Positions 215-25,199 of a stretch of DNA of 64,000 nucleotides are shown here, piece after piece; positions within the stretch are counted from its first letter, which is position 1; each line of letters starts with the position of its first letter. Below the pieces are notes generated by a model. It saw nothing but the letters and a program-made list of their open reading frames with translations, had not been told where the DNA came from and searched no databases. The stretch lies in contig CAXXVK010000074.1 in assembly GCA_963676915.2 (NCBI GenBank), forward strand, positions 1-64,000. The letters run 5' to 3'. The DNA is from Myxococcota bacterium (GTDB taxonomy: Bacteria > Myxococcota_A > SURF-8 > G963663525). The translations under genes and the position numbers were made by a program.

Positions 215-506
215 GGCGCACCTCCCGTCCGTCGGCACATCGTCCATCATCTTCCGGATCCAGCAGAGACGCGGCGCGCAGCAGATAGGAAGCGGCCTCC
301 CGCAATTCCTCAGCCATCAGCGACTCGTCCATGGTCTGCGTGATCTGGATGCCGCGATGACTGAAACGCACGATCCGGCTCAACTTGCCAATCGCGAAGG
401 CGATCGCGAAGGAGGGACTCATCCAAGGGAAATCGGCTCCGTCCGACCGGCTGGTGCGCCGGGGGTCACCGACGGCCTGCAGCATTTTCTCGATCTGCCG
501 CCTCAT
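204..506 (-). CDS. Hypothetical protein (~100 aa, MRRQIEKMLQ...)
   Basis: ATGA overlap with the upstream gene's stop (503-506); RBS GGAGG; overlaps the start of the nuclease gene. Confidence 0.55.
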   Translation of the reverse strand: MRRQIEKMLQAVGDPRRTSRSDGADFPWMSPSFAIAFAIGKLSRIVRFSHRGIQITQTMDESLMAEELREAASYLLRAASLLDPEDDGRCADGREVRHDG

Positions 507-856
507 GCCGAAACCTCCAGACCGTCCATGCGCTGCATATAGCGCCGCACGGTGCTGCGGGCCTGGCACAGAATCTGGCGAACGCGTTCGCGGCTGATCT
601 CGAACTCGCAGCCGACTTCCTCCAGCGTGCGTTCCTCGAGAACGCACAACCGCAGGATGCGCTTCATGCGTTCGGCCTTTTTGGGCTTGTCTTTGCCGAA
701 GCTTTCATCGATGGCGCGCTCGGCGATACGGAGGGCATCCTCAGCCAGCAAGTTTTCTTCGGGATCGGCGGCGGCGGATTCGAGCCGGTTGCATTCCTGC
801 ATGCGCCAGGCTTCGGCGTAGGCGGGATCTTCAGTAGGGAAACAGGTCATGGTCAT
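503..856 (-). CDS. Small protein with sigma-70 region 4 HTH only
   Basis: RTLEEVGCEFEISRERVRQI matches the sigma region 4.2 motif TLEEVG..F..TRERIRQI. RBS AAGGAG. Confidence 0.8.
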   Translation of the reverse strand: MTMTCFPTEDPAYAEAWRMQECNRLESAAADPEENLLAEDALRIAERAIDESFGKDKPKKAERMKRILRLCVLEERTLEEVGCEFEISRERVRQILCQARSTVRRYMQRMDGLEVSA

Positions 857-910
857 TGCTCCTTTTCGGCGGTTCGGACACGCGAGGTGTCGGAAGATGC
901 CGTGCTATAG

Positions 911-926
911 AGCAACGCCCGTGCCA
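911..926 (-). promoter_or_regulatory. Sigma-54 (-24/-12) promoter
   Basis: Minus strand TGGCACG-GGCG-TTGCT matches the consensus TGGCACG-N4-TTGCW, 55 bp upstream of the 856 start. A weak IHF-like site (TACCAGCCAGTTA, 933-945) lies just upstream. Confidence 0.8.
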
Positions 927-1026
927 TGCTGGTAACTGGCTGGTATTACATGGTTAATTGTGATTTACAGGCGGGTTTTCGAAGATTCGAAGAGTTCTGT
1001 GCGTAAAGAGGCCTTGGAAGGGTGAA

Positions 1027-1070
1027 AAGTGCTCTATTAAGTGCTCTATTTCCCGAAAAAGTGCTCTATT
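1027..1070. repeat. Three direct repeats of AAGTGCTCTATT
   Basis: Exact copies at 1027-1038, 1039-1050 and 1059-1070. Confidence 0.9.
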
Positions 1071-1119
1071 TCCAATTTCGAAAAACCGGGAGAAATGAGC
1101 GACAACCCTGTATTTACTA

Positions 1120-1986
1120 GGCAGTGTCGTCACGAGATATCAAGCCAGAGAGCGAGACATCTGATATGAACGGCTGCGAGGAAAGATGCCGCGTTTTTTG
1201 CGTATCGTGTAGCGATTCCTCGCCATCGTTTCAGTTTCAGAAAAGCGTTTTCGACCAGATGTCGAACACGATAAAGCTCTTTATCGTATGGTCGTTGAAC
1301 TTTCCGATTCTTTTTCGGAGGAATGACTGCCACCATCTCCGCGTTTTCGGCTTTTTCAAGGATCACGTTCGTATCGTAGCCGCGATCAGCCAATAAATAC
1401 TCGGCGTCGATTCCTTCGATCAATGCGCAAGCTTCCTTGCAATCTGCTCGGGTACCCTCTGTAACAATCGCTCGGACTGGATTACCATGCGCATCCACGG
1501 CCAAATGTATCTTACTGTTGAGCCCCCTTTTGTACGGCCCATCGCTTGATTGCCACCCTTCGCTCCTGCGGCGTCAGGATGCACTTTGACGTGGCTGGCG
1601 TCGATCATCAACCATTCGTAGTCGGGATCGTCAATGAGGATCTCAAGCAATTTCTCCCAGATTCCCTTGTCGCGCCATCGGCAAAAACGACGGTTCGTGT
1701 TGTTCCAGCCACCGTAATCCGGGGGTAGGTCACGCCACGGCGCACCGGTACGCAGAATCCAGAAAACAGCATTGATGAATCGTCGATTGTCTTCCGCCAC
1801 GCCTCCCCACTCGCCGGAGCGTCCAGGTAGATGGGGTTCCAGGAGATTCCATACGTGATCGGAAATATCGTGACGATGGTAGGCAGCTTCCATGGTAATT
1901 CCTCTCGATATATTCTAGTAAATAGAAATATATCGAGAAGCCGAGGATTTTGTCCAGATAAATCGTTTTCTCGTGTCGACACTGTC
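1120..1986 (-). mobile_element. IS5-family insertion sequence (IS427-like), copy 1, 867 bp
   Basis: 18-bp terminal IRs GGCAGTGTCGTCACGAGA / GACAGTGTCGACACGAGA; TA duplication within a CTAG target; same sequence as 41514-42380. Confidence 0.92.
1130..1893 (-). CDS. IS5-family transposase in two ORFs joined by a -1 frameshift
   Basis: ORF A has the motif WILRTGAPWRDLP; ORF B has DRGYD and RHLVENAFLKLKRWRGIATRY. A shift at AAAAGGGGG (~1523-1531) restores GGLNSKIHLAVD. Confidence 0.88.
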
Positions 1987-2016
1987 TAGGATAACGGCGA
2001 TTTTGGCGATTTCAAT

Positions 2017-2060
2017 AAGTGCTCAATTAAGTGCGCCATTTCTCGAAAAAGTACTCTAAT
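2017..2060. repeat. Degenerate second copy of the three-repeat cluster
   Basis: AAGTGCTCAATT (2017), AAGTGCGCCATT (2029), AAGTACTCTAAT (2049); same 12/20-bp spacing as 1027-1070. Confidence 0.8.
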
Positions 2061-2091
2061 TTCGTTGAAACTGGGCAATTTCTCCTCTAAT

Positions 2092-2129
2092 AAACGACGA
2101 AACCCGCGTCAACTGGATCTGGACGCGGG
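2092..2129 (-). terminator. Probable intrinsic terminator after the SEC-C gene
   Basis: Stem CCCGCGTC/GACGCGGG followed on the minus strand by TTTCGTCGTTT. Confidence 0.45.
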
Positions 2130-2287
2130 GATGATTATGATCGAGGCTTGAATGCCTCGAATTTGCCTGTGAAAGAAGCTCTATTTTCGCTTCTGAATGG
2201 AAGTGATGTCGGCTTCGATAAAACGTAAAATCACTTTATGGTTTTCCCAATATTTAATCCATTCATTTCAGCCCAATTCCAATTCTT

Positions 2288-5200
2288 TTATGGAACTGTT
2301 TCTATATGAGCGCCACTTGATATTGTTGCCAGTGCATCCATTCCATTTCGCATTAGCGTTCGTAAAGTTATAACTGGGTACCCGGTATTTATCACAAAAC
2401 TAGAAGGAATGACCAACGAGGTCAGAAACAACGGCACGATTTTCCAAGTACCTTCACTCAAATTTAGTTTCTGCCTTACTTGATCCCAGTTGTCTTTCAA
2501 CCAAGCTATTCTGGCCTTATGCTTGTCAATTCTAACTTCTCTATCCGGGTAGCGTGGATCCCTTCTAAACAACATGTCAATCTCGCTACCAATTTCTACG
2601 GCATTTCGACTGGGATTCAGTCTTTTACATTCAACACAGAATAAAAGCATTTCGTTGGGATCCACAAGGAGTACATCAATATCGCCAAGTTCTTTGGGAC
2701 TATCGAAGAATTTCCCCGGTGCTATTGGCAAGTTTCTTTCAACACGAATTCCCAGATGTTGATTGCACCATGTATAAGCTCTGTTCTCGAAATCCTTTCC
2801 AAGCTGGTCGTTCATTGCACCGATATAGGATTGCAATTCTTGGGATTTTGCGTGCTTTTGTTTAAATTGGCCGTTCTCGATCAAGTGGTAGAGGTATTTG
2901 ATTGAATTATCGAGGTGCCGAGGCCCCCAATAAACAACCCATTTTTCAGGATCATCTTTGGGATGAATCATCAAAAATGGGCGTCTGATCATTGAGAGTC
3001 TTCTATTGTATCTGTAGGGGAGAATATCATCCATTTCAAAGCCAGTGGGGATATGATCCCATCGGCCTCGTGGCCTAAACGAAAATTCTTCAATAATATA
3101 ACGAACTCTTTCCTCTGCGACCTCTGACTTCTCCGATATCAAACTTATAAGTGCTTCATATTCTTCGCTTGGGCATGAGCTATCATATATTGCGAAGGCA
3201 GCAATAGACATCGATATAAATACACTGAATAACTCTTCTAGACTGCATCCGAATTCAGCAGCAATAGCTGCAGAGAGATCGGGCGGTAGTTCGATCTGGG
3301 GCTTTTCTTTCTCTCTTTCATGTTCGGAGTTCTCTTCTTTGCCAAGATCGTATGAATTATCCTCTTGAGCAGTTTCCAGATCTTCCAACGTTTTTGCATC
3401 CAAGAATCCATCGAGCATGTCTTTTCGATTGAGGTCGTTGCCTATCCGACCACTTTCAAGAATACTTAGTTTGTGGGAAAATACTCGGCAACGAATCTCG
3501 TCTCCCATCGCTCCCCAGTTGATATAATGATATGCGATCGCGAGCAATTCATCAAAATCATCGTCAGAAATTGGCGATGAAGCGGTATGCGGCTCAGCAA
3601 CCAGAAACTCAATAAGGAAGCGTGCCGACAACGCAAGATTCGCAATTTCTGAAGTGTGTTCCGCTTCGAGTTTCGCTTGTTTGGCAGTTCCATGAAAGCA
3701 AGCTGCGGAACGAGGTGCTGTATATTTGGCGAATTGTTGCTTCCATACTGTTCCTTCATTTACTAAAATAGCCTTCTCTAATAGTTGCTGATAGTCATAC
3801 TGTTTAATTTTGCTTCTCATACGATCTAGATGTATGGTGAGAATAGCTTCGTTTATTTCTCGACGATCTTGGTCGGCCACATCCCCCACAACCAAGGTTT
3901 TACCCGTAATGTTGACTACTTCATCAACTAACCCGTCCAGTTGTGACATCATGTTATGTTCACTGAGTTTACGATATGGTGGTAGATGTCGCATCTCTAG
4001 TCGAATGTCTTGGCTTGTGTCAATTCCGTTGAATTTCCTTTTCAATCCAACTGGAGCGATACTTTCAACTATTTGGTCCGTCTCAGATGCGGCAATCTTT
4101 TCTTCATCACAGTATTTATTAATCCCATGAATAATATTTCGAATTAAAAGCCTTTCTGCCTCATTGCTTTGACCGCTGGAAAAATATAGAAATACATCTG
4201 GGAGTGTCAGGATTATTTCGTTGTCAACAACTTCAGCCTGAAATTCGGAGCTCCCATTCCGCAACTCATCAGGTCTGTTATTGCCATCCCAAGTGGATGG
4301 GTTTTCCAGCCGAAAGGAAATTCTAATCGGTTCAGATAATATCACTTTTTGTTGCAGAGTAGGAAGTAGTTGCCATACCCAAAAAGCAAATGTTTCAACG
4401 AGGTGAAATGCCGTTCCAGATAGCTCCTGAGTTTTATAGTCAATATTAGGTCCAACCCATATAGGATATACGCATCCTTCAATGACCTGCTCGTAGTTTT
4501 TCGCGAAAAATTCTCCAATCGGCAAATATATTGGCACTTCATCACTATCTTCATGGCGGCGAACAACCTCTACCAACTTTGTTGGTTTTTGCCATCCCTC
4601 AACAAGGTGCTTATCCCAGGATCTCTTTGATTTGATTCTAAGTTCGCGACCGACGTCAGGAAGAATGTTAAGTAAATTAGGTTTTTGATCATCTGATATG
4701 TAAAAGGACTCACCATGGCCTTTATACAGTGAGTATATATCCAATGTAGAAGCACCCGGGCTGATTTTAACGCTTTTAGTAAACTCAGCCCACCCACGTG
4801 CAAATTTCCAAAGGGTCAGTTGGTCCATATCTCTCATTCTTGTCATGGTTTCTAGATCTTCAGCAAACAGCACTATTTGTTCGCACCCTTTGGGCGGAGC
4901 TTTGAATCCTGCGACTAACATTCTACCAAAATGCCCAATAACAAGAATATTTAAGATTTTTCTGTACGGGGAAGCATTTCCGGAGAGATGTTTTACTACA
5001 ATTTCTAATCTATTTCGCACTTGATCAAGTACTGAGTTTGCATCCCATGATGTCCATGGATCGGTGATGGAATAATTTTCCGCAAAATCGGTAACGACTT
5101 GAACATAACAAGCTATCTCAATATCGATATGAAATAGGACTTCAGTGTATTTTCTATCAGGCTCTGGCTCTAGACCTTCCATTGGAATAGGTTTAAAGCT

Positions 5201-6169
5201 CATGAGCATAGACGATTCTCTCACTGATGCTATTACCGCTTGATGATATGCATATGCCAATTTCTCCCGCATATTTGCTCTGATAGCAGAATTTAATATA
5301 AAATGTCGAATTGTCGAGGTGAATTCATGTGGGGCTAAAACGATGAAATCATCGCCAATCTCTAACAGTGGCTTTTGCAGTGTATACCATTGGTCTTTTT
5401 CAATCTCAGCTTTATCAATCGCATCAGCATGCAATGTAAATGGTTCAATTGCTGTTCGTGGAATATCGCGTAGGCTAAGCAAGGAATAAAACTCATCCCT
5501 ATTGAAAGAAACCCCATTTCTTAGAGTTTCCAGCATTGATTCACCGGGGATTTTAATTTGATCGATTGCGTAGTTTTCATTTGCTTCCCACCTGCCATGA
5601 CCCAGCTTATTTGCCACAGAGTCTGAAATAACGAGAAGCGCTTTTACTGGATCATACACTGAACCTATGAATTCATCGGGGAGAATCTTGCTAGGCGAAT
5701 TAAATACTGCTCTAAGAAGCTGAGTTGTCACGTATGCCCCAGGTCCAACATTGTCGGGATAAACTGTGTAATTGCCACCATGAAAACAAATATTTTCGGT
5801 CACTAGCTGCTCGGGTATATCCTCTTGTGGTTGGGCATCTAACAAATTCTGAGAGTTTGAAAACAAGGAATCCAATTCATTTTTATTTACAACTCTTGTT
5901 CCTTTTACCCGATCAAATTCCTGCAGAAGATGCCATATTGCACGTCCTATTTTCGCCCGGTGCATCAAATTATCTGGATCGACCAACAATCCAGATAGTG
6001 AAGAAAAAAGAGCCGAAGGATCGTGATTTTTAAACATCTTGAATACATCCTTCCTACTTTTCCTTTTATTGCCGAACATTGGTCGTTCAAATATTCCAGA
6101 TCTCAGGCAACATTTTTTATATTTCTTACCTGACCCACACGGGCATTTTGAGTTTCTGCCGATTTTCAT
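2288..6169 (-). CDS. Large SEC-C motif protein with C-terminal PD-(D/E)XK nuclease-like domain
   Basis: N-terminal GRNSKCPCGSGKKYKKCC; C-terminal FE...GDIDVLLVD...CVECKR. Visibly AT-rich. ATG 6169 follows GAGGTG (ORF track starts at 6175). Confidence 0.75.
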   Translation of the reverse strand: MKIGRNSKCPCGSGKKYKKCCLRSGIFERPMFGNKRKSRKDVFKMFKNHDPSALFSSLSGLLVDPDNLMHRAKIGRAIWHLLQEFDRVKGTRVVNKNELDSLFSNSQNLLDAQPQEDIPEQLVTENICFHGGNYTVYPDNVGPGAYVTTQLLRAVFNSPSKILPDEFIGSVYDPVKALLVISDSVANKLGHGRWEANENYAIDQIKIPGESMLETLRNGVSFNRDEFYSLLSLRDIPRTAIEPFTLHADAIDKAEIEKDQWYTLQKPLLEIGDDFIVLAPHEFTSTIRHFILNSAIRANMREKLAYAYHQAVIASVRESSMLMSFKPIPMEGLEPEPDRKYTEVLFHIDIEIACYVQVVTDFAENYSITDPWTSWDANSVLDQVRNRLEIVVKHLSGNASPYRKILNILVIGHFGRMLVAGFKAPPKGCEQIVLFAEDLETMTRMRDMDQLTLWKFARGWAEFTKSVKISPGASTLDIYSLYKGHGESFYISDDQKPNLLNILPDVGRELRIKSKRSWDKHLVEGWQKPTKLVEVVRRHEDSDEVPIYLPIGEFFAKNYEQVIEGCVYPIWVGPNIDYKTQELSGTAFHLVETFAFWVWQLLPTLQQKVILSEPIRISFRLENPSTWDGNNRPDELRNGSSEFQAEVVDNEIILTLPDVFLYFSSGQSNEAERLLIRNIIHGINKYCDEEKIAASETDQIVESIAPVGLKRKFNGIDTSQDIRLEMRHLPPYRKLSEHNMMSQLDGLVDEVVNITGKTLVVGDVADQDRREINEAILTIHLDRMRSKIKQYDYQQLLEKAILVNEGTVWKQQFAKYTAPRSAACFHGTAKQAKLEAEHTSEIANLALSARFLIEFLVAEPHTASSPISDDDFDELLAIAYHYINWGAMGDEIRCRVFSHKLSILESGRIGNDLNRKDMLDGFLDAKTLEDLETAQEDNSYDLGKEENSEHEREKEKPQIELPPDLSAAIAAEFGCSLEELFSVFISMSIAAFAIYDSSCPSEEYEALISLISEKSEVAEERVRYIIEEFSFRPRGRWDHIPTGFEMDDILPYRYNRRLSMIRRPFLMIHPKDDPEKWVVYWGPRHLDNSIKYLYHLIENGQFKQKHAKSQELQSYIGAMNDQLGKDFENRAYTWCNQHLGIRVERNLPIAPGKFFDSPKELGDIDVLLVDPNEMLLFCVECKRLNPSRNAVEIGSEIDMLFRRDPRYPDREVRIDKHKARIAWLKDNWDQVRQKLNLSEGTWKIVPLFLTSLVIPSSFVINTGYPVITLRTLMRNGMDALATISSGAHIETVP

Positions 6170-6260
6170 CTTCACCTCGATAGATTTGACATGAAAGCTG
6201 CATCGCTAAAGAATCATTCTATGCATGGGCCATATACTATGCGAGATAAATAAAATGATT

Positions 6261-7103: not shown

Positions 7104-7115
7104 CGATTCACTCCA

Positions 7116-8213
7116 TCAGGTTCCAAGCGGAACGCGGCAACGGAAGACGGTCCAGGATTCACCGTCGCTGTCAACCTCAATCGCTCCGCGATGCTCCAGT
7201 TCAACCACGCTGTAGGCCAGATAAAGTCCCATGCCCAGGTGGGGCCCCTGTTCCTTCTTACCGGAGGCGAAGGGCGTAAAGATCACCCGCCTGTACTCCT
7301 CCTTGATGCCGGGTCCGCTGTCCCGGATGACAAATTCGATCTCGCCAGCCTCTTCAAACAGAGTAGCGGAAAATTCGACGCGGCCGCCCTCCGGCGAGGC
7401 TTCGATTGCGTTTTTCACGATGTTGATCAGGGCGCGCGCCAGACGTTCAATCACGACCCGTAGATTTACGTCGGGCGGCTCTCGGACAATCAGGCTGACA
7501 CTTCTCTCATCAGCCAGATCCTGCACCGACTGGCAGACCTGATCGACCAGGGATCCGCATTGGACCACGTCAAAGTGCAGCTTCCGTCCCTCCGCAATGA
7601 ATCGCATAGACTCGCTGAAGTCTTCGAGGCGTTTGCTACGCTGAGCAATCCGGTTCAATGTTTCGGAATGCTTGCGCAGGGTGTGGTCGGAGAAGTCTTC
7701 TCTCAACCTAGACAATTGCGAATTGAGTGGATGTAAAAGATTCTTCAACTCATGGGCGAATTCGTTGATCGCCAGCCCTTGTGCATCGCGCAGCGCCGTC
7801 ATGACATCTTTGTGGAAGGCGTTCGGATTCTTGTTGGAAGCCGCTTCGATCTTGCTGGCCAGTCGGTCCAGTGCGCGTCCGTCCTTTTCGTCCTCTTTCT
7901 GCTCGGTAGACTGGCTGCGCAGGCGTTTCACGCGCAGGGCGGCCTTTTTTACATAGGGGTTCGCATCATCAAGCAGGCCGGGAATCAGCTTCCAGAACCA
8001 GGAATCTGGAAGCAGAGTGGCTTTTTCCGCCAGCGCCTGACGCACCTCCCATTTCCCATCCGAGGACAACAGTTTCAGCAGTTTGAACGCTTCGGTCGCA
8101 TCATCACTTTCGCCCCGGCGTACCTGGTCGACGAGATGCTCGACCGCCTTGACCCGGTCGCCACCGTTCGATGACGTCGCCAGTTTTTCAAGATCCCTAG
8201 CCGCGCTTGACAT
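7116..8213 (-). CDS. Cytoplasmic histidine kinase with N-terminal HEAT-like repeats
   Basis: H-box FAHELKN, N-box NIVKNAIEA, DSGPGI, F-box, GMGL. Repeats SDGKWEVRQALA and DDANPYVKKAAL; no TM segment. Start MSSAARD follows GGAG. Confidence 0.85.
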   Translation of the reverse strand: MSSAARDLEKLATSSNGGDRVKAVEHLVDQVRRGESDDATEAFKLLKLLSSDGKWEVRQALAEKATLLPDSWFWKLIPGLLDDANPYVKKAALRVKRLRSQSTEQKEDEKDGRALDRLASKIEAASNKNPNAFHKDVMTALRDAQGLAINEFAHELKNLLHPLNSQLSRLREDFSDHTLRKHSETLNRIAQRSKRLEDFSESMRFIAEGRKLHFDVVQCGSLVDQVCQSVQDLADERSVSLIVREPPDVNLRVVIERLARALINIVKNAIEASPEGGRVEFSATLFEEAGEIEFVIRDSGPGIKEEYRRVIFTPFASGKKEQGPHLGMGLYLAYSVVELEHRGAIEVDSDGESWTVFRCRVPLGT

Positions 8214-10092
8214 CGCGATATCTCCTTCCGCGTTCCTCAAACGCCTCCAGGCCGCCTTCCATGAGATTGACGATGAAATCGCGAATCTCCTTTCGATCGA
8301 GGTTTCCTTGTTCCGCCACTTCGGCCTGGCGTCCGTCCGATTTGAGGACCACGACATTCTTCGCCTCGCCCAGCACCGGGATGTTGGGGTTGTGGGTCAC
8401 GAAGATCATCTGCCGCCGCTCCTGTGTTTCTTTCAGCTTCGGCACGACCGTATCCGAGACATAGGAGTTGTCGAGGTTGTCTTCGGGCTGATCGATCAAC
8501 AGGGGTGCCACACTGTCGAGCAGCAGGATGGGCAGGATGGCGGAGCATTTCTGGCCGGTGGATACCCGTTCGGTGGGTCGGAACCCGGCCCCGGTATCGA
8601 GCTGAATCTCGACCAGATCATCCACGTCGATCACTTCCAGATCGTAGCGGACGTTGGAATCCTTCAGAAGCGCCTGAACCAATGCGGCGGCGAAATCATC
8701 CGTCACCTCAGAGGACTCGACGATCGCGTTCGCATTCTCCCTACCAACAAACATGGCCAAACGACGCGGGTCGATGGCGCTGGTCACCTTGGCTACCCGT
8801 GGCCGAAACTTGGTGCCGGAGCCTTTCATTTGGTCGTTTAGAAAGTCTGCGTAGGTTGTAGTATCCGCCGCCTGCCGCACTTCGATGCGGATCTTTCCAG
8901 CCAACTGTTGGTTTAGCGACTCAGCTGCCTGCTGCCGCACATCGTAGCGTTTCTGGCAGGCGTCCGAGAATTCCCATAACAGTTTGTCCCGCTCCTCCCG
9001 CATCTCTTTGATCTGCTCTTCGATGCGCATACGGGAGCGCTGCTTATTTTCCAGTTCCCGGATCTGCTTGGCCAGCGCATCCCGGTCCTTTACGCGGGCC
9101 TGCTTGTCCTTCTGCTTGGCCAGAGTATCGTGGTATTTCACATCTTCCGGCGCATGCCGTTTCTTCAACTCCTCCTGCATGGTATCGGCAGCACGATTCA
9201 TCTCGTCCAGGCACCCCAGAGCGTCATTGATCAGATCCTGAAACCGCTTGGCCTGATCCAGGTAAGTGACGCGGAGCTGCTCGAACAGTTCGCCGTTGGG
9301 ACCGCTTAGAAGTTCATCGGCAAAGACTTCCTTCAGACCCGTAAACATGCCCGTTCGCAAAGGCTCCGTGCGGCGACGGGCGCTATCGAGGATGGGTGGT
9401 ACGGCGTTCAGCGCGGCGAGTTCGTTATCGCGCATCTGCTTGGCCGTAGACGCAGCTTCCACTTCCGGGCCTACATCCACACCTTCCAGTTCCTTGTTCA
9501 GTCGATCGAGTTTTTCCTTCAGCGCGGGCAGTTCCTGAAGATTGACATCCTCCCCGCGCAGTTGCTGTTCCAGCAGGAGCAGGCTTTTCGCGTTCTGCTC
9601 CAGCTTCGTGCGTTTGCGCTGAATCTCCTGGCGCACCTCCCATATCTGCTTACGCTCGAAGCGATCCAGAAGTTCCCGCTGTGAAGGCGAATCGCTGGCG
9701 ATGGTTTCGATTTCGTTCTGACTGAAGACCGCTGCGCTGATGGACAGGCCCGAATCGAGGATCTTCGGATCCACAACCTCACCGGACTGGTCCATGACGA
9801 TCGGCGATTCCTTGTAGGCCCGCTTGATCGTAAAGCGTCCACCGTCCTCGGTTTCGAATTCCACCTCCACTACACCGTTGTGCAGGTTTCCCTTGAGCAG
9901 CTTGCCGAGGCGGTCGTCGGGATCGCCGCCGTTGATGCTGCCGCCCAGTGCGTAGCGAATCAGTTCCTGCAACGTGGTCTTCCCGGTGCCACGCCCGCCG
10001 ATAATGCAGTTGAGGCCATCGGTAAAAACTATATCCAGCCCGTCGAGAAAACCGCCGGTCACCCGGATCCGGCGAATCTGATGATGTCTCAT
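8197..10092 (-). CDS. ABC/SMC-type coiled-coil ATPase (TrlF/Ppl-ATPase-like, no PHP domain)
   Basis: Walker A GGRGTGKT, Q-loop FSQNE, long coiled coil, signature STGQ, Walker B LIDQPEDNLD, H-loop VTHNPN. Start at ATG 10092 after GGAGG. Confidence 0.85.
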   Translation of the reverse strand: MRHHQIRRIRVTGGFLDGLDIVFTDGLNCIIGGRGTGKTTLQELIRYALGGSINGGDPDDRLGKLLKGNLHNGVVEVEFETEDGGRFTIKRAYKESPIVMDQSGEVVDPKILDSGLSISAAVFSQNEIETIASDSPSQRELLDRFERKQIWEVRQEIQRKRTKLEQNAKSLLLLEQQLRGEDVNLQELPALKEKLDRLNKELEGVDVGPEVEAASTAKQMRDNELAALNAVPPILDSARRRTEPLRTGMFTGLKEVFADELLSGPNGELFEQLRVTYLDQAKRFQDLINDALGCLDEMNRAADTMQEELKKRHAPEDVKYHDTLAKQKDKQARVKDRDALAKQIRELENKQRSRMRIEEQIKEMREERDKLLWEFSDACQKRYDVRQQAAESLNQQLAGKIRIEVRQAADTTTYADFLNDQMKGSGTKFRPRVAKVTSAIDPRRLAMFVGRENANAIVESSEVTDDFAAALVQALLKDSNVRYDLEVIDVDDLVEIQLDTGAGFRPTERVSTGQKCSAILPILLLDSVAPLLIDQPEDNLDNSYVSDTVVPKLKETQERRQMIFVTHNPNIPVLGEAKNVVVLKSDGRQAEVAEQGNLDRKEIRDFIVNLMEGGLEAFEERGRRYRDVKRG

Positions 10093-10180
10093 ATCGTTCC
10101 TCCATCGTGAGTCTGCCAACAGGTTTTTACAAAACCCATCCTGCCTCAACTCACATTTCCTGTCGCCTGCGGCAGTTTTC

Positions 10181-10202
10181 AAAATCCTGCTAGCAGGATT
10201 TT
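10181..10202. promoter_or_regulatory. Perfect 22-bp palindrome, candidate operator
   Basis: AAAATCCTGCTAGCAGGATTTT lies in the divergent intergenic region between the ATPase and bEBP genes. Confidence 0.55.
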
Positions 10203-10373
10203 ACCCGTATCTCCAACTCCTGCTCGCAATGTCGTCACTGTTTGCCGCAGGAATACAAGCAGGCATCCATGCTGCCGCCCATCATGCCACAGGCGATTCC
10301 GGCGCATGGAAGAAGTACAGTATAGCTCAAAACGGCTCACAACGAATCGTTTTAATGTAATCAAGGACATAGC

Positions 10374-11399
10374 GTGTCACAAGAGTTGACGTATTCCAGA
10401 ACAGAAGGGCTGATCGGCGGCGATGCCGCCATGGATGCCCTGTTTGATACAATCCGGGGTATCGCCCGGATCGGGGATACGTCCATCCTGATACAAGGCG
10501 AAACCGGCGTCGGCAAGGAAGGCTGCGCCAGAGCCATCCACTATAACAGCCCGAGGAAAAGCGGCCCGCTCGTAACAGTCAACTGCGCCGCCATTCCGGA
10601 TTCTCTGGCTGAAAGCATGTGGTTCGGCCACAAAAAGGGAGCCTTCACCGGGGCCACAACCGATAAGGCTGGATATTTCGAAGCCGCGCATGGAGGCGTG
10701 CTTTTTCTGGATGAGGTCGGCGATCTGTCGCTGGACTCCCAGGCTCTGTTGCTTCGGGCCTTACAGGAAAAGGAAATCGTGAGAATCGGCGAAACGAAGC
10801 CTCGCCGGGTTGATGTCCGAATCGTCTCGGCCACCAACAAAGATCTGCTCGGCATGATCGAACGTGGTGAGTTTCGGCGGGATCTTTATCATCGCCTAGC
10901 GGAAGAGCCTCCCCTTATCATTCCCGCGCTTCGCGATCGACCTGAAAGCATTGCCGTACTGATTCAACACTTCATCGACCAGTTTTTCCGTCAGTACAAG
11001 GTCCGGATAGGCCTGCCGGAATCCGTCTTGGACGTACTGCGAGCCTTTTCATGGCCGGGCAATGTCCGTCAGCTCAAATCCACGATCAAGTATCTGGTGC
11101 TTACGGTTGCTCGCCGTGGGGGGAAGCAAATTCGGCAGGAAGACCTGCCGGAAGATATCCGCAACAGCCAGCTGCCTCAAATTCCCGCACCATACAGAAG
11201 CGACGTACTCCGCGACGCCATTCTGAGGGTACTGGGTCAGATGCAGAGTCTGTCCGTCAGCGATCTGGTTGATCGGGTCGGTCGGAATCGGCACGCCATC
11301 AGCTATCAGTTGGAACAGATGGAATCGGAAGGACTGGTCCGGATCGAGCGCCGACGCGGGCGAAGTGGAAACCTCGTGCATCTGCGCGCCGGAGATTGA
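10374..11399 (+). CDS. Sigma-54-dependent enhancer-binding protein with no N-terminal sensor and a winged-helix C-terminus
   Basis: GETGVGKE, GAFTGA, LFLDEVG, FRRDLYHRL, WPGNVRQL. The C-terminal LSVSDLVDRVGRNRHAISYQLEQMESEGLVRI is ArsR/MarR-like. Confidence 0.92.
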   Translation: MSQELTYSRTEGLIGGDAAMDALFDTIRGIARIGDTSILIQGETGVGKEGCARAIHYNSPRKSGPLVTVNCAAIPDSLAESMWFGHKKGAFTGATTDKAGYFEAAHGGVLFLDEVGDLSLDSQALLLRALQEKEIVRIGETKPRRVDVRIVSATNKDLLGMIERGEFRRDLYHRLAEEPPLIIPALRDRPESIAVLIQHFIDQFFRQYKVRIGLPESVLDVLRAFSWPGNVRQLKSTIKYLVLTVARRGGKQIRQEDLPEDIRNSQLPQIPAPYRSDVLRDAILRVLGQMQSLSVSDLVDRVGRNRHAISYQLEQMESEGLVRIERRRGRSGNLVHLRAGD

Positions 11400-11409
11400 T
11401 TTTACATCT

Positions 11410-11425
11410 TGGCATGATGGTTGCT
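11410..11425 (+). promoter_or_regulatory. Sigma-54 (-24/-12) promoter for the recombinase operon
   Basis: TGGCATG-ATGG-TTGCT, 10 bp after the bEBP stop and 46 bp before the next ORF. Confidence 0.75.
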
Positions 11426-11471
11426 TTATCTATCCACTCGAAAGAAGATATTAAGAATAACAACACCTTAG

Positions 11472-11663
11472 ATGATGGATATGCCCCAGACGAACAACCC
11501 CCAACATGAAATCGCAGATATTCTCGCCACCGGTTACCTGCGCTACAGAAGAAGACAGGCTGCTGAATGGGTGAAAGAAAAAACAGAGAAAACCCTTGAT
11601 GATGTCACCCAACGAGGGAAGCTCCGGACGACGGAGAATCGAACTCCGGAGAAAGGAGCCTGA
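11472..11663 (+). CDS. Small hypothetical protein preceding DUF2924
   Basis: EIADILATGYLRYR resembles small ORFs recalled upstream of DUF2924 genes; its stop is 1 bp before the next start. Confidence 0.55.
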   Translation: MMDMPQTNNPQHEIADILATGYLRYRRRQAAEWVKEKTEKTLDDVTQRGKLRTTENRTPEKGA

Positions 11664-11664
11664 T

Positions 11665-12171
11665 ATGACGAGCAAACCCGGTAGACGACAACGTGACACC
11701 ATCCTGCATCAACTGGCGGAACTTGATTCCCTGCCCACAGCGGAATTGAAGAAGCGCTGGAACGTGCTCTATGGACAGGAGCCGCCGCGTTTCAACCGAC
11801 AGTTCCTGATTAAACGCCTGGCCTACAGGATTCAGGAAATCGCCTATGGCGGAGTCGACGATCGAACGCGGACCCGAATGAATGACCTGCTTGAAGATGA
11901 AGGTTATGACGAGTTGGGGCGAAAAGTGCGCAAACCGACTCGCCGGGCGTCTGAACGCACCATCGTGCCGGGTACGGTCCTGGTGCGCGAATGGCAAGGG
12001 GAGCGCCATGAGGCGGTCGCCATGGACGATGGCGGTTTTGAGCATCGCGGCATGCCCTACCGCTCCTTATCAGCGGTGGCGCGGGCCATCACCGGCACAC
12101 GCTGGAATGGCCCGGCGTTCTTCGGATTGCGAGGCAAGACGGTTCCATTGAAGGAGGCCGCTCGTGATTAG
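11665..12171 (+). CDS. DUF2924 family protein
   Basis: LAYRIQEIAYGG, PGTVLVREWQG, YRSLSAVARAITGTRWNGPAFFGL. RBS AAGGAG. Confidence 0.85.
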   Translation: MTSKPGRRQRDTILHQLAELDSLPTAELKKRWNVLYGQEPPRFNRQFLIKRLAYRIQEIAYGGVDDRTRTRMNDLLEDEGYDELGRKVRKPTRRASERTIVPGTVLVREWQGERHEAVAMDDGGFEHRGMPYRSLSAVARAITGTRWNGPAFFGLRGKTVPLKEAARD

Positions 12172-13726
12172 GGACCGAAAGCAGACCCAAAACAATCCGA
12201 TCATTCGTTGCGCCATCTACACTCGCAAATCCACCGACGAGAATTTGGACTCTGACTTCAACAGTTTGGATGCCCAGCGAGAGTCTTGCGAGCATTTCAT
12301 CCAGTCCCACGCCCGCGAGAACTGGCATGCGCTGGACGCCCGATACGACGACGGAGCGTATTCAGGCGCAAGCATGGAGCGCCCGGGACTGAAACGGCTG
12401 CTGGCAGACATTGAGGACGGCATGGTGGACTGCGTTGTGGTCTACAAAATTGACCGGCTGTCGCGATCCATCGCGGATTTCACGCGCATGATGGAGTTTT
12501 TCAAACAACGCGATATCGCCATGGTCAGCGTGACCCAGGCCTTCAACACGAACACCTCCAGCGGCACGCTCATGGTGAATTTATTAATGACGTTCGCCAG
12601 TTACGAAAGAGAAGTTATCGCCGAGCGCATCCGGGACAAGGTGGCGGCCAGCAAAAAACGAGGTAAATACATGGGTGGCGTGCCGCCCCTCGGTTACGAT
12701 GTGGATCGTGACAGAAAACGGCTGGTCGTGAATTCCGAGGAAGCCGCTCTGGTGCGATTCATCTTCCGTCGTTACCTTCAATTGCATTCCGCAGTAGCGC
12801 TCATCAAAGAGTTGAACGGAAAAGGCCTGACCACCAAGTCCTGGGTAACGAAAAAGGGCATTCATCGGAAAGGCCGCGCCTGGAACAAATCGCACATCTA
12901 TCGCCTGCTGAACAACCCTATTTATGCAGGCAAGATCAAACACAAGGATCGGCTCTATGAGGGCGAACACGAGGCGATCATCGAAAAGTCCTTATGGGAT
13001 GAGGTGCAGTCGACGATCGGATCCGAGGGAAAAGCAGGAATTCGGCATAATGACACCTTGTCGCCGTTAAAGGGGATTCTTGTCTGCGGTCACTGCCGCA
13101 AACCGATGGGAGCCACATTCACAACAAAGGACGGTAAGCGCTACCGCTATTACCTCTGCCAACAGGCGGGAAAATCCAGTTACGACAGCTGTCCGATTCG
13201 TTCCGTACCAGCCGGAGATCTGGAAAACCTGGTGCATATTCAGATCAGGCGGATGCTCGGCTCCCCGGACATCGCCGCCGAAACGTTCCGGGAACTGGTG
13301 AGACGGGAAGCCGAGACGGTAAAGAAACTTGAACAACAGACCGACAAGCTGAGAGAGGAACTGTCAACACTGCAATCCGCTCGTAAGCGACTGATTGAAC
13401 CTGGGGATGGAGCATCAAAACTTGTGGCAGAGGAGCGGATCGGAATCGAAGAGAAAATCAATCATCTTACGCTTCAGCTTGCGAGCATGGATGCGGAACG
13501 CGAATTCTACAGCAACAATTTACTGACCGAACATGAATTGGCAGCGGAACTTCAGCGCTTGGATCTCTTCTGGAATGAACTCTTTCCCGGTGAAAAGACA
13601 CGGATTATCAAGCTGCTGGTGGATGAGATCATCGTGAATAAAGACGGAATCGACATTGCGTTGAAACCGACTGGTGTCGAAGGAGTTGCGTTGGAGATGT
13701 CGGGAGGACCACATGCACAACCGTGA
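12164..13726 (+). CDS. Large serine recombinase (resolvase + recombinase + Zn-ribbon domains)
   Basis: CAIYTRKS catalytic Ser motif, SGASMERPGL, YKIDRLSRS, CGHC...YRYYLC. Confidence 0.93.
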   Translation: MIRDRKQTQNNPIIRCAIYTRKSTDENLDSDFNSLDAQRESCEHFIQSHARENWHALDARYDDGAYSGASMERPGLKRLLADIEDGMVDCVVVYKIDRLSRSIADFTRMMEFFKQRDIAMVSVTQAFNTNTSSGTLMVNLLMTFASYEREVIAERIRDKVAASKKRGKYMGGVPPLGYDVDRDRKRLVVNSEEAALVRFIFRRYLQLHSAVALIKELNGKGLTTKSWVTKKGIHRKGRAWNKSHIYRLLNNPIYAGKIKHKDRLYEGEHEAIIEKSLWDEVQSTIGSEGKAGIRHNDTLSPLKGILVCGHCRKPMGATFTTKDGKRYRYYLCQQAGKSSYDSCPIRSVPAGDLENLVHIQIRRMLGSPDIAAETFRELVRREAETVKKLEQQTDKLREELSTLQSARKRLIEPGDGASKLVAEERIGIEEKINHLTLQLASMDAEREFYSNNLLTEHELAAELQRLDLFWNELFPGEKTRIIKLLVDEIIVNKDGIDIALKPTGVEGVALEMSGGPHAQP

Positions 13727-14171
13727 TGAAACAGAGGCACTTTCGAGGCCAAAGGCCGCTGAAAGCAAGCCCGATAAAAGGCAAAGAGTGTATCGGGATA
13801 AGCGCGGGCGATTGATCGTTCATATCCCGATGAACCTGAAAAGAAGAGGTGGCCGTAAAGAGATTGTGCTTCCACATGGCTCTGATCCCGACAGCCTCAA
13901 TGACGCAACTTCACTCAATCGACCACTGGCGCTGGCCGTGGCTCTCGGGCATCGCTGGTTGGACCTGTTGACCGAGGGGCGATTCGGTTCCGTGCAGGAA
14001 CTAGCCGAAACGATCGGTATGGATCCGTCGCAGGCGCGGCGGCACTTGAGTCTGGCCTGCCTTCCACCCAAACTTGTCCGGGCAATACTGAACGGCAAGG
14101 AGCCGGAAGGTTTGTCGGTGGAAGAGGCGGTAAATATCTCCCCTAATTGGGCAGACATGATTGAGGTGTAG
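13713..14171 (+). CDS. Recombinase-associated HTH protein
   Basis: RRGGRKEIV...ALGHRWLDLLTEGRFGSVQELAETIG...LACLPPKLVRAILNG; overlaps the recombinase stop; RBS GGAGG. Confidence 0.7.
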   Translation: MHNRDETEALSRPKAAESKPDKRQRVYRDKRGRLIVHIPMNLKRRGGRKEIVLPHGSDPDSLNDATSLNRPLALAVALGHRWLDLLTEGRFGSVQELAETIGMDPSQARRHLSLACLPPKLVRAILNGKEPEGLSVEEAVNISPNWADMIEV

Positions 14172-15214: not shown

Positions 15215-15280
15215 ATTAAAGCATTAGGATCTTTGCATTTATGCATCTTTAGCATGTGATTACGAGTTTGACATGCTTTT

Positions 15281-16036: not shown

Positions 16037-16044
16037 TCTGTCTC

Positions 16045-20635: not shown

Positions 20636-20685
20636 TATCCATTCCCCTTGAATTTTCAAGCGTCCACCGCACCTGGAGAGAATCG

Positions 20686-21177: not shown

Positions 21178-21180
21178 TTG

Positions 21181-25188: not shown

Positions 25189-25199
25189 AAGTAGATTAA

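What the first reader, a model, noticed from the sequence alone, without database searches (positions are those of the whole stretch)
503..14171. Mobile element apparently run by its own sigma-54 circuit: a sensor-less bEBP plus -24/-12 promoters on both the phage-type operon and the recombinase operon
Seen: an intact bEBP (GAFTGA, Walker A/B, R-finger) with no N-terminal regulatory domain and a winged-helix rather than Fis-type C-terminus. TGGCATG-N4-TTGCT lies 10 bp after its stop, in front of small ORF-DUF2924-serine recombinase-HTH. TGGCACG-N4-TTGCT (911-926, minus) lies in front of sigma-R4-ORF-nuclease. Established: sigma-54 promoters are silent without a bEBP, and sensor-less bEBPs (PspF, HrpR/S) are controlled in trans by partner proteins. 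Inference: excision and replication of this element are switched on together by an element-encoded sigma-54 activator rather than a CI/LexA-type switch. I see no such repressor in the window and know of no described element wired this way.
Basis: partly seen in the sequence, partly recalled or inferred. Interest (0 to 1): 0.88.

Follow-up and report, generated by a model that had tools for sequence, protein, structure and literature searches.

The report
Prophage switched on through sigma-54
A family of integrated bacterial viruses carries its own sigma-54 activator protein and sigma-54 promoters in front of its replication and integration genes, a way of wiring a virus switch for which I found no description in print.

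Summary
Window 10374-11399 encodes an intact 341-aa sigma-54 activator (bEBP). It has no N-terminal sensor domain and a winged-helix tail. Two near-consensus -24/-12 promoters face outward. One (11410-11425, +) lies 10 nt after the bEBP stop, before small ORF-DUF2924-serine recombinase-HTH. The other (911-926, -) lies before a sigma-region-4 protein, an ORF and a PD-(D/E)XK nuclease.

The element is a tailed prophage cut by the contig start. In 11 related loci, 7 keep a -24/-12 box at the bEBP stop, even where the recombinase is replaced by a tyrosine integrase or by helicase-primase genes. All 6 loci with the nuclease operon keep a -24/-12 box in front of it. Those promoters carry element-specific arrays of 5-10 direct repeats about 100-400 bp upstream, the position of enhancers.

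Most likely the phage bEBP is the early-gene activator. The "no repressor" part is not established. Same-genus relatives carry a candidate XRE/CI-like protein beside the bEBP. The window has an SMC-like ATPase-histidine kinase-response regulator operon there, but that trio also occurs elsewhere without a bEBP.

Five literature searches found no such circuit. Everything here is computational.

The parts
2..250 (-). N-terminal part of a PD-(D/E)XK nuclease, third gene of the leftward early operon, cut by the contig start
   Evidence: PF12705 4.8e-5. The full-length homologue is 384 aa in G001 (PF12705 1e-19). The window starts at base 1 of contig C74.
204..647 (-). ORF of 147 aa of unknown function, second gene of the leftward operon
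   Evidence: No Pfam or PHROG hit. Homologues at 44-93% identity in G001, G004 and G003 in the same position.
503..856 (-). 117-aa protein consisting of little more than sigma-70 region 4, first gene of the leftward operon
   Evidence: PF04545 6.4e-10; phrog_351 sigma factor 4.9e-6; 70% identical in G001.
911..926 (-). Leftward sigma-54 (-24/-12) promoter, TGGCACGGGCGTTGCT
   Evidence: The same or an equivalent box precedes the nuclease operon in G004, G001 x2, L040 and L141.
1027..1069 (-). Proximal array of three direct repeats ATAGAGCACTT (starts 1027, 1039, 1059), about 100-145 bp upstream of the -24 box; candidate enhancer
   Evidence: An identical array lies in G004. Analogous element-specific arrays lie in L014/L016, L040, L059 and L141.
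1118..1988 (-). IS (DUF4096 + DDE_Tnp_1 transposase in two frames) inserted in the spacer between the two repeat arrays
   Evidence: Pfam. G004 has the two arrays 121 bp apart with no IS. The IS unitig has depth 24 against 2-4 for its flanks.
2017..2059 (-). Distal array of three degenerate copies of the same repeat (starts 2017, 2029, 2049)
   Evidence: with the same 12/20-nt spacing as the proximal array.
2288..6175 (-). 1295-aa SEC-C-motif protein like the Upx defence candidate; low-GC cargo in a variable slot
   Evidence: PADLOC Upx 1.5e-53; PF02810; GC 0.41-0.42 against about 0.54 around it. G004 has an unrelated 327-aa ORF in this slot.
6261..7103 (-). Response regulator: receiver domain plus about 150 aa of unknown fold
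   Evidence: PF00072 2e-11. D11 D12 D55 K119 are conserved. The C-terminal part was not modelled, pLDDT below 50.
7116..8357 (-). Cytoplasmic histidine kinase with a HEAT-like N-terminal part (true start probably near 8216)
   Evidence: HATPase_c 1.2e-19. The H-box EFAHELKNLLHPL is conserved in three homologues.
8197..10182 (-). SMC/Rad50-like ABC ATPase, first gene of the ATPase-kinase-regulator operon, divergent from the bEBP
   Evidence: AAA_23 6.7e-17, AAA_21, SMC_N. Heads resemble LmuB/Ppl. It lies next to the bEBP in G004, G008/L005, L040 and G003.
10181..10202 (.). Perfect 22-nt palindrome AAAATCCTGCTAGCAGGATTTT in the divergent promoter region, preceded by GCGGCAGTTTT; candidate operator
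   Evidence: Read. Kept with one change in L005. The GC(G/C)GCAGTTTT word is repeated three times in L040.
10374..11399 (+). Sensor-less sigma-54 activator (bEBP): AAA+ domain, lid, winged-helix tail
   Evidence: About 13 clusters of this architecture exist among 1.84 billion representatives.
11410..11425 (+). Rightward sigma-54 (-24/-12) promoter, TGGCATGATGGTTGCT
   Evidence: A -24/-12 box lies at the bEBP stop in 7 of 11 related loci. The promoter plus leader is 87% identical to G001, against 61-63% in the flanks.
11472..11663 (+). Small ORF (63 aa), first gene behind the rightward promoter
   Evidence: Homologue at 42-59% identity in both G001 copies. No family hit.
11596..12171 (+). DUF2924 protein (true start probably ATG 11666)
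   Evidence: PF11149 2.5e-47; phrog_11806 6.9e-52.
12164..13726 (+). Large serine recombinase (integrase)
   Evidence: Resolvase 2.4e-36, Recombinase 1.7e-17, Zn_ribbon_recom 3.7e-11.
13674..14171 (+). 165-aa HTH protein, last gene of the recombinase operon at the right end of the element
   Evidence: HTH_IclR 4e-4, below cut-off; phrog_14161 4.8e-24. Homologues follow the recombinase in G001 and L040.

Best explanation
The region is the regulatory and integration end of a temperate tailed phage (prophage) whose early transcription runs on the host's sigma-54 RNA polymerase.

The phage encodes a bEBP made only of the AAA+ motor and a winged-helix DNA-binding tail. Two outward-facing sigma-54 promoters flank the regulatory cassette. 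The leftward one drives a sigma-region-4 protein, an unknown ORF and a PD-(D/E)XK nuclease. In complete relatives that operon continues into RecD2-like helicase, AEP primase and then packaging and head genes. The rightward one, placed at the bEBP's own stop codon, drives the recombinase operon.

Sigma-54 promoters are silent without an activator, so the prophage stays quiet as long as the bEBP is not made or not active. When it is, replication/recombination genes and the integrase operon come on together. The arrays of direct repeats about 100-400 bp upstream of the leftward promoter are most likely the bEBP's enhancer.

The decision layer above the bEBP is variable. In the window, G004, G008, L040 and G003 it would be an SMC-like ATPase-histidine kinase-response regulator operon. 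In the same-genus prophages it would be a candidate XRE/CI-like 431-aa protein.

Shown: the sequence features, their conservation and their placement. Inferred: that this bEBP acts at these promoters, that the repeats are its enhancer, that this is the induction switch, and what controls the bEBP.
For: (1) The bEBP is intact and sensor-less. It is the only bEBP locus with a short complete frame among the 22 found in G000. Nineteen others have open frames of 445 aa or more, and two are fragments at contig ends.

(2) The host has rpoN. The same strict motif precedes its pilin gene.

(3) Motif density: TGGCAY-N5-TTGCW occurs 13 times in 221,254 bases of nine loci around these bEBPs, against 14 times in the 5,182,139-base genome.

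(4) In 7 of 11 related loci the box lies from 48 nt before to 13 nt after the bEBP stop: window, G004, L005/G008, G001 x2, L040, L057.

(5) The gene behind that box changes while the box stays. It is DUF2924-serine recombinase in the window, L005 and G001. It is a tyrosine integrase in G004, whose bEBP is 93% identical. It is RecD2 helicase plus primase in L040 and G003.

(6) In 6 of 6 loci where the nuclease operon was found, a box precedes it. In L141 two divergent boxes flank one repeat array and drive the nuclease operon and a serine recombinase.

(7) Repeat arrays were seen in 7 of 7 loci with such a promoter. All copies run in the promoter's orientation, the unit is element-specific and all units share a CAC(A/T)TTT-like core.

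(8) Footprint: the promoter plus leader is 87% identical between the window and G001, against 61-63% in the flanks.

(9) Relatives are tailed prophages, with major head, portal, neck, TerL and MuF genes. IMG/VR calls L040's record a provirus.

(10) Controls: only 7 of 80 other bEBP loci in viral contigs, and 3 of 21 other G000 bEBPs, have a box within -60..+400 of the stop.
Against: There is no expression, TSS or binding data; no RNA run holds the stretch.

The rightward promoter has no repeat array nearby. The nearest array is 9.4-10.4 kb away in the window and 3-7 kb away in relatives, so activation there would need long-range looping or action from solution.

The repeats are direct, not inverted, and could be iterons or sites for another protein. 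Similarity between bEBP tails did not track repeat similarity, for example L040 against L141.

Two related loci (L058, L140) have no box. In L059 the box lies upstream of the bEBP instead.

In the window an IS splits the two arrays. About 22 kb of the prophage is absent from the assembly. The G004 copy is a remnant in which the nuclease is followed directly by a MuF-like gene and then host-type genes. This particular copy may therefore not be functional.

The SMC-kinase-regulator trio occurs without a bEBP in 4 of 7 further loci, which weakens its proposed role as the bEBP's sensor.
Confidence: 0.7

Rival explanations
1. A conventional repressor sits at the top and the bEBP is only a relay. 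A CI/XRE-type repressor (the 431-aa protein in G001-type phages, an unidentified one in the window's type) holds the bEBP promoter off. The sigma-54 step is a delayed-early amplifier comparable to lambda N/Q or Mu Mor/C, not a replacement for a repressor switch.
For: The G001 431-aa protein is transcribed divergently from the 75aa-102aa-bEBP operon. It has a weak HTH_3 match at residues 25-54 (E 0.015, below cut-off). Its language-model features resemble cro/C1-type HTH_26 clusters (score 0.93, 196 of 256 features). A perfect 22-nt palindrome lies in the window's bEBP promoter region.
Against: The HTH evidence is sub-threshold. No S24 autocleavage domain lies in either G001 prophage copy or in L040's record. 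The window type has no homologue of the 431-aa protein. This rival is compatible with the sigma-54 circuit and disputes only the 'no repressor' clause.
Confidence: 0.4
2. The SMC-like ATPase-kinase-regulator operon is lysogeny-expressed cargo, a defence or exclusion system like lambda rexAB, and has nothing to do with controlling the bEBP.
For: The trio, or at least its ATPase-kinase pair, is found without any bEBP within about 8 kb in 4 of 7 further loci of the phylum (L142-L145). Its ATPase heads resemble LmuB/Ppl/AriA defence ATPases. In the window it lies next to an Upx-like defence candidate. G001-type phages do without it.
Against: It stays directly divergent from the bEBP in five elements whose bEBPs are only 44-96% identical: window, G004, G008, L040, G003. 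In G003 the regulator is receiver-only, the kind that works by protein contact.
Confidence: 0.4
3. The repeat arrays are not enhancers. They are iterons of the phage replication origin, or sites for another phage DNA-binding protein such as the sigma-region-4 protein or the wHTH of the primase.
For: They are direct repeats at 11-12 and 20-21-nt spacing, as iterons are. bEBP tail similarity did not follow repeat similarity. L040's primase carries an IclR-type wHTH.
Against: The arrays always accompany a sigma-54 promoter at enhancer distance and in its orientation. This holds in L059, where only bEBP and recombinase genes follow, and in L141, where one array lies between two divergent boxes. 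In L040 the arrays are on the opposite side of the cassette from helicase-primase.
Confidence: 0.25
4. The promoters are served by host bEBPs, and the phage bEBP regulates host genes or something else.
For: The -24/-12 core is read by sigma-54, not by the activator. The rightward core differs by one base from the host pilin promoter. G000 has 21 other bEBP loci.
Against: The box is physically tied to the phage bEBP's stop codon in 7 of 11 loci across three host families and an IMG/VR record. Element-specific arrays argue for an element-specific activator.
Confidence: 0.08

Closest known systems
PspF of Escherichia coli (recalled, not retrieved by a call)
   Same: A bEBP of about 330 aa with no N-terminal regulatory domain: AAA+ motor plus a C-terminal DNA-binding domain. 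Its gene lies next to its target sigma-54 promoter, and it is controlled in trans by a partner protein.
   Different: PspF has a Fis-type HTH and a chromosomal envelope-stress role with PspA as inhibitor. Here the tail is a MarR/ArsR-like winged helix and the gene sits in a prophage. I made no targeted search for a PspA-like partner; no neighbour I scanned carried a PspA family hit.
HrpR/HrpS of Pseudomonas syringae (recalled)
   Same: Sensor-less bEBPs carried on a horizontally acquired island, which switch on the island's own genes through sigma-54.
   Different: They act as a heterohexamer on one promoter (hrpL) of a secretion island. They are not encoded by a phage and do not act on replication or recombinase genes.
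Phage-encoded activators of early, middle or late promoters: lambda CII and Q, Mu Mor and C, P2 Ogr (recalled)
   Same: A phage protein that is made first and is required for otherwise silent phage promoters, including the integrase promoter (CII at PI).
   Different: Those work with sigma-70 RNA polymerase by recruitment or antitermination. Here the promoters have the -24/-12 architecture, which needs ATP-driven opening by a bEBP.
RtcR-type bEBPs (best PADLOC model: RtcR_PspF2, 2.2e-89)
   Same: The AAA+ sigma-54 interaction core, with a link to conflict and stress biology.
   Different: RtcR has an N-terminal CARF sensor; this protein has none. The match covers only the AAA+ core (residues 9-266).
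Htm (Gp204) of Mosigvirus AV110, bioRxiv 10.64898/2026.10.06.757011 (passages read)
   Same: A phage-encoded AAA+ protein with structural likeness to bEBPs, proposed to act with sigma-54 polymerase.
   Different: [quoted passage not shown] No phage sigma-54 promoters are described in the passages I read.
Non-SOS prophage switches, for example the small-protein modules of Silpe et al., Nature 2023, PMC10432266 (search listing and abstract only)
   Same: Prophage induction controlled by modules other than RecA/LexA-type cleavage.
   Different: No sigma-54 or bEBP component appears in the abstract I saw.

Membership tests
Bacterial enhancer-binding protein (sigma-54 activator) | Sigma54_activat AAA+ domain above the Pfam cut-off | tested here: met
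   PF00158 211.7 bits against a cut-off of 20.2.
Bacterial enhancer-binding protein (sigma-54 activator) | GAFTGA loop, Walker A, Walker B, conserved arginines | tested here: met
   GAFTGA at 89-94, GETGVGKE at 42-49, DE at 113-114; R168, R174 and R232 are invariant in the family alignment.
Bacterial enhancer-binding protein (sigma-54 activator) | C-terminal DNA-binding domain of the Fis (HTH_8) type | tested here: not met
   No HTH_8 match. MarR/ArsR-type winged helix at 282-328 instead. This is a variant architecture, shared by about 13 clusters.
Bacterial enhancer-binding protein (sigma-54 activator) | ATP-dependent activation of sigma-54 holoenzyme | not testable with these tools
   Needs biochemistry or reporters.
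Sigma-54-dependent promoter | GG and GC elements 10 nt apart within TGGCAC-N5-TTGCW (consensus recalled) | tested here: met
   0 and 1 mismatches respectively. These are the only 2 matches to the stricter pattern in the window, against 0.05 expected.
Sigma-54-dependent promoter | Intergenic, correctly oriented, 30-60 nt before a start codon | tested here: met
Sigma-54-dependent promoter | rpoN present in the host | tested here: met
   PF04552 218.7 bits on contig C72.
Sigma-54-dependent promoter | Conserved in related elements | tested here: met
   7 of 11 loci at the bEBP stop; 6 of 6 before the nuclease operon.
Sigma-54-dependent promoter | Upstream enhancer bound by the activator | tested here: inconclusive
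   Repeat arrays at about -100 to -400 of the leftward-type promoters, none near the rightward one. Binding was not testable and the covariation test gave no signal.
Sigma-54-dependent promoter | Transcript start about 11-12 nt after the GC, dependent on RpoN | not testable with these tools
   No RNA run was listed for the stretch.
Temperate tailed phage (prophage) | Head, portal, neck/tail and terminase genes | tested here: met
   In the G001 relatives: phrog_2522 major head 1.4e-63, portal 6.6e-37, Neck1 4.9e-29, Terminase_6N, MuF. In G000 the head and neck homologues lie at the end of contig C29, and the middle of the element was not found.
Temperate tailed phage (prophage) | Integrase at one end, with defined att sites | tested here: inconclusive
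   A serine recombinase lies at the right end. The left end in G001 was resolved to a few bases. The right end and the att core were not resolved.
Lambda-type CI/LexA repressor switch | Repressor with S24 autocleavage domain inside the element | tested here: not met
   No PF00717 match inside G001:C4:42032-80429 or G001:C1:2672800-2710234, in the G004 element, or in L040's record. None was found among the window ORFs scanned.
Lambda-type CI/LexA repressor switch | XRE/Cro-type HTH repressor at the divergent control region | tested here: inconclusive
   G001 431-aa protein: HTH_3 E 0.015, below cut-off; atlas score 0.93 to HTH_26 clusters. No counterpart in the window.
Large serine recombinase (phage integrase type) | Resolvase catalytic domain + Recombinase domain + zinc ribbon | tested here: met
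   All three are above cut-off.
PspF/HrpS-like trans-regulated bEBP | No N-terminal regulatory domain | tested here: met
   The AAA+ domain starts at residue 13.
PspF/HrpS-like trans-regulated bEBP | A partner protein that binds and inhibits the AAA+ domain | not tested
   No partner was identified. The one complex job (regulator receiver with bEBP) gave no verdict and is listed under Tried and rejected.

The most novel reading that the evidence does not exclude
The phage has replaced RecA/LexA-type induction by a phosphorelay that ends in a 'split NtrC'. An SMC/Rad50-like ATPase senses DNA ends or foreign DNA. It signals to a HEAT-repeat histidine kinase, an arrangement reminiscent of Rad50-ATM. 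The kinase phosphorylates a stand-alone receiver protein, which gates the sensor-less bEBP in trans. The six direct repeats template one bEBP hexamer that fires two sigma-54 promoters, so the lysis-lysogeny state is held by an absolute-off promoter class rather than by a repressor.
Probability: 0.12. Interest if true: 0.92.

Novelty: new variant of a known kind. Interest (0 to 1): 0.72.

Why it matters
Textbook temperate phages hold their lytic genes off with a repressor on sigma-70 promoters. Here the early promoters belong to the one bacterial promoter class that cannot open without an ATP-driven activator, and the phage brings that activator along.

If confirmed, this would be a positive-control design for lysogeny, with very low leakiness by construction. 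It would also tie phage development to the host's RpoN, so rpoN mutants would be expected to be immune or non-inducible.

It would supply a compact, portable and orthogonal part set: a 341-aa activator, a 16-nt core promoter and short repeat enhancers with element-specific sequence.

The comparative set also shows recombinase modules (serine or tyrosine) being exchanged behind a retained sigma-54 promoter. That makes integrase regulation in these phages directly testable.

Tried and rejected
Complex prediction of the bEBP AAA+ part (A2, residues 1-270) with the response-regulator receiver (A5, residues 1-150) gave score 0.23 against a mark of 0.32. That is no support and no verdict, and I do not use it either way.

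The AlphaFold model of the response regulator had mean pLDDT 61.9, and the C-terminal 130 aa were below 50. No fold search was run on it. The atlas lead for that part (Trans_reg_C cluster, 0.84) is below the useful range.

Covariation of bEBP tails with repeat units: pairwise tail scores did not group L040 with L141, although their repeats share GCCGCAC. This is inconclusive.

RNA structure of the conserved leader behind the rightward promoter: consensus energy -0.86 kcal/mol and 1 compensatory pair in 7. I dropped the hairpin idea.

The sigma-70 promoter scan of 9900-11700 found 0 sites, so the bEBP's own promoter is unidentified.

Sequencing runs: no RNA holder was listed. Laying the contigs of 4 runs gave no joint across the element ends and no extension beyond window base 1.

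The word-index search with the bEBP tail alone found only 2 proteins. The metagenome scan with the tail profile gave 3 loci: one a near-copy of L005, and two that are not bEBPs.

tblastn against 50,697 phage records found 62 records, all under 60% identity. Judging by the listed rows, they are host contigs or fragments filed as phage. I found no cultured phage relative.

Literature: searches listed no paper on a phage- or element-encoded bEBP with sigma-54 promoters. The library lacks most subscription journals, and supplements were closed, so this is not proof of absence.

Full report
OBSERVATION

The ORF at 10374-11399(+) is a 341-aa sigma-54 activator. Sigma54_activat matches at 7e-63 over residues 13-176, the AAA+ lid over 187-267, and a MarR/ArsR-type winged helix over 282-328. 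There is no Fis-type HTH and nothing before the AAA+ domain. Walker A, GAFTGA, Walker B and the conserved arginines are in place.

TGGCATGATGGTTGCT lies at 11410-11425(+), 10 nt after the stop. TGGCACGGGCGTTGCT lies at 911-926(-), 54 nt before the ATG of a 117-aa sigma-70-region-4 protein.

The stricter pattern TGGCAYG-N4-TTGCW has 2 matches in the window against 0.05 expected. It has 4 matches in the whole 5.18-Mb genome, and one of the other two precedes a type IV pilin gene. That shows the pattern picks real sigma-54 promoters in this organism. rpoN is present.

WHAT THE ELEMENT IS

The window begins at base 1 of contig C74, inside the nuclease gene. A same-genus genome (G001) holds two copies, 85-96% identical over most of their length, of a roughly 38-kb element that carries the same module. 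From the leftward promoter it reads sigma-region-4 protein, ORF, PD-(D/E)XK nuclease, two ORFs, RecD2-like helicase and AEP primase. It then continues to large terminase, portal, MuF-like protein, a DNA methylase, major head protein and neck protein. It is a tailed prophage.

In G000, homologues of the head and neck end lie at the very end of contig C29, together with the same left flank as in G001. The roughly 22 kb between them was not found in the assembly. The window thus holds the regulatory and integration end of a prophage. Whether this copy is whole cannot be told.

To its right lie an HNH gene, McrBC-like genes and an MmeI-type enzyme, then the tmRNA gene at 25200-25549 and the his operon.

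COMPARATIVE TEST OF THE PROMOTERS

I examined 11 loci with a bEBP of this kind:
- the window
- G004:C2 (bEBP 93% identical)
- L005 = G008, also recovered as L041 (83%)
- G001:C4 and G001:C1:2.68 Mb (65%, near-duplicates)
- IMG/VR record L040, classed as provirus (46%)
- G003:C1:1.60 Mb, L057 (44%)
- G001:C1:74 kb, L059 (39%)
- G001:C1:20 kb, L058 (40%)
- G003:C1:4.14 Mb, L141 (40%)
- G001:C1:1.33 Mb, L140 (37%)
.

In 7 of the 11 (6 of 10 if the G001 twins count once), a TGGCAY-N5-TTGCW box lies from 48 nt before to 13 nt after the bEBP stop, on the same strand. What follows the box differs:
- small ORF-DUF2924-serine recombinase-HTH in the window, L005 and both G001 copies
- a 442-aa tyrosine integrase in G004
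- RecD2-like helicase and primase in L040 and L057
.

In the 6 loci where a homologue of the nuclease operon was found (window, G004, G001 x2, L040, L141), all 6 have a box in front of it. In L141 two divergent boxes 538 nt apart drive that operon and a serine recombinase. In L059 the box precedes 64aa-bEBP-DUF2924-recombinase-HTH, an autoregulatory layout. L058 and L140 have no box, and L058's bEBP looks truncated at its N-terminus.

Density is 13 boxes in 221 kb of these loci, against 14 in 5.18 Mb of G000.

Controls: 7 of 80 other bEBP loci in viral contigs, and 3 of 21 other bEBPs of G000, have a box within -60..+400 of the stop. Adjacency to a target promoter is normal for some bEBPs. That fits the reading that the adjacent box is this protein's target. 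The constancy seen in this family is not a general property of bEBPs.

Between the window and G001, the 71 nt around the rightward box are 87% identical while the flanks are 61-63% identical.

In G001 the two prophage copies are about 95% identical up to roughly 50 nt past the box, and about 66% identical beyond it. In G004 the identity to the window breaks inside the last codons of the bEBP, and a different box comes with the tyrosine integrase. Recombinase modules are therefore swapped, but always with a sigma-54 promoter in front.

ENHANCER-LIKE ARRAYS

Upstream of the leftward promoter the window has three exact ATAGAGCACTT repeats (1027, 1039, 1059) and three degenerate ones (2017, 2029, 2049), all in the promoter's orientation. 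G004 has the same 3+3 repeats, 121 nt apart. In the window an IS with terminal inverted repeats has landed in the spacer.

The other elements have their own units:
- TAATTGGCCACTT, 10 copies in L014
- AATAGCCGCACATTT, 6 copies at 21-nt steps in L040
- TCCGTCTATTTA, 5 copies in L059
- CTAACGCCGCACTTTT-like, 7 copies read by eye between the two boxes of L141
.

That is 7 of 7 loci with a box that is not at the bEBP stop. Position (about -100 to -400), orientation and element specificity fit an enhancer for an element-specific activator. Direct repeats would equally fit iterons, and I could not show covariation with the bEBP tail. The rightward box has no array nearby.

THE bEBP FAMILY

A profile of the 80-aa tail, searched against 1.84 billion representatives, gave 530 hits at E of 0.001 or lower and 22 at 1e-10 or lower. 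Of the 14 I aligned because the match lay at the end of a 328-380-aa protein (plus one 244-aa fragment), 13 are sensor-less bEBPs with GAFTGA-type loops and the ...GLVRIERRRGRGG... tail, and one (P0247) is not a bEBP. This is a small, distinct subfamily.

WHAT CONTROLS THE bEBP

In the window, G004, G008, L040 and G003 the bEBP is divergent from a tight operon:
- an SMC/Rad50-like ATPase
- a cytoplasmic histidine kinase with an H-box and HEAT-like repeats
- a response regulator with the phospho-acceptor residues
.

In G003 the regulator is receiver-only. This invites the idea of a receiver acting in trans on a receiver-less NtrC-like motor. However, the ATPase-kinase pair, with the regulator in two of the four loci, also occurs without any bEBP nearby in 4 of 7 further loci. 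It resembles defence ATPases. It may therefore be lysogeny-expressed cargo, as the Upx-like gene beside it probably is.

The G001 prophages have instead a 431-aa protein with a sub-threshold XRE-type HTH, plus two small ORFs ahead of the bEBP. No S24 peptidase lies in these elements. A 22-nt perfect palindrome and a GCGGCAGTTTT word, repeated in L040, lie in the bEBP promoter region.

MECHANISM

I commit to the following at about 0.7. The phage bEBP is the activator of both outward sigma-54 promoters. It thereby switches on the early replication/recombination operon, which leads into the morphogenetic genes, together with the recombinase operon.

My odds are about 0.5 that this step is the actual induction switch rather than a relay below a repressor. 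They are about 0.3 that the kinase system feeds into it.

NOVELTY

Five full-text searches listed no paper describing a phage or other mobile element with its own bEBP and sigma-54 promoters. The nearest was a preprint on Htm, a bEBP-like AAA+ protein without the GAFTGA loop or a DNA-binding domain (passages read). No cultured phage record holds a close relative. The parts are known, but their use as the core wiring of a temperate phage appears undescribed. I rate it a new variant of a known kind.

CAVEATS

Everything here is sequence-based. The genomes are MAG-like drafts.

Noticed in passing
window 1118-1988: An IS5-like element (DUF4096 plus DDE transposase in two frames, terminal inverted repeats) sits exactly in the spacer between the two repeat arrays. 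Its unitig has depth about 24, against 2-4 for the flanks, so it is multi-copy in the source sample.
   Followed up: partly
window 2288-6175: A 1295-aa SEC-C-motif protein matches the PADLOC Upx model over nearly its whole length (1.5e-53) in a low-GC stretch (0.41). G004 has an unrelated 327-aa ORF in the same slot, so this looks like a cargo hot spot inside the prophage's regulatory region.
   Followed up: partly
window 14178-25549: Right of the recombinase operon lie an HNH endonuclease, a McrC-like protein, a 1125-aa AAA_5 (McrB-like) protein and an 1175-aa MmeI-type restriction-modification enzyme. The tmRNA gene (25200-25549, minus strand) and the his operon follow. This may be a separate island at the tmRNA gene.
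   Followed up: no
window 11426-11471; L014 13634-13683: The roughly 45-nt leader behind the rightward promoter (…CTATCCACTCGAAAGAAGATA…TAAGAATAACAA) is conserved far better than its flanks among the window, L005 and G001. No convincing RNA hairpin was found. It may be an operator or a translation signal.
   Followed up: partly
window 11566-14125: In one other public run, a 30.9-kb contig carries this DUF2924-serine recombinase-HTH block at about 95% identity with unrelated sequence on both sides. The recombinase module appears to move as a cassette whose left edge lies inside the small ORF.
   Followed up: no
L038 7780-8696; L037 9923-10885; L032 4589-5455: Other IMG/VR contigs encode very short bEBPs (243-288 aa, Sigma54_activat only, no DNA-binding domain) as the last gene of a helicase/ligase/polymerase cluster. 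In L038 a TGGCACGATTCCTGCT box follows 44 nt after the stop, and in L037 TGGCACTAAACCTGCT follows about 215 nt after. Sigma-54-based timing may exist in unrelated, possibly lytic, phages.
   Followed up: partly
L142, L143, L144, L145 (G380, G240, G250, G110): The SMC-like ATPase followed by the HEAT-type histidine kinase recurs in distant genomes of the phylum with no bEBP within about 8 kb. The receiver protein follows in L142 and L144. It looks like a self-standing module of unknown function.
   Followed up: partly
G000:C39:19156-19171 (L003 8757-8772, minus strand): The host's type IV pilin gene has the box TGGCACGATGGTTGCT, which differs by one base from the phage's rightward box and is identical to the one in L005.
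   Followed up: no
L058 and L059 (G001:C1 near 20 kb and 74 kb): Two further bEBP-DUF2924-serine recombinase islands in one genome have almost identical bEBP tails. Only L059 has the sigma-54 box and the repeat arrays. L059 lies next to McrBC-like genes, and no phage genes were seen in the stretch fetched.
   Followed up: partly
window 503-856: The first gene of the leftward operon encodes little more than sigma-70 region 4. It could be a phage modifier of host RNA polymerase or a late-gene regulator. It is 70% identical in G001, but the first gene in L040 is not clearly homologous to it.
   Followed up: no
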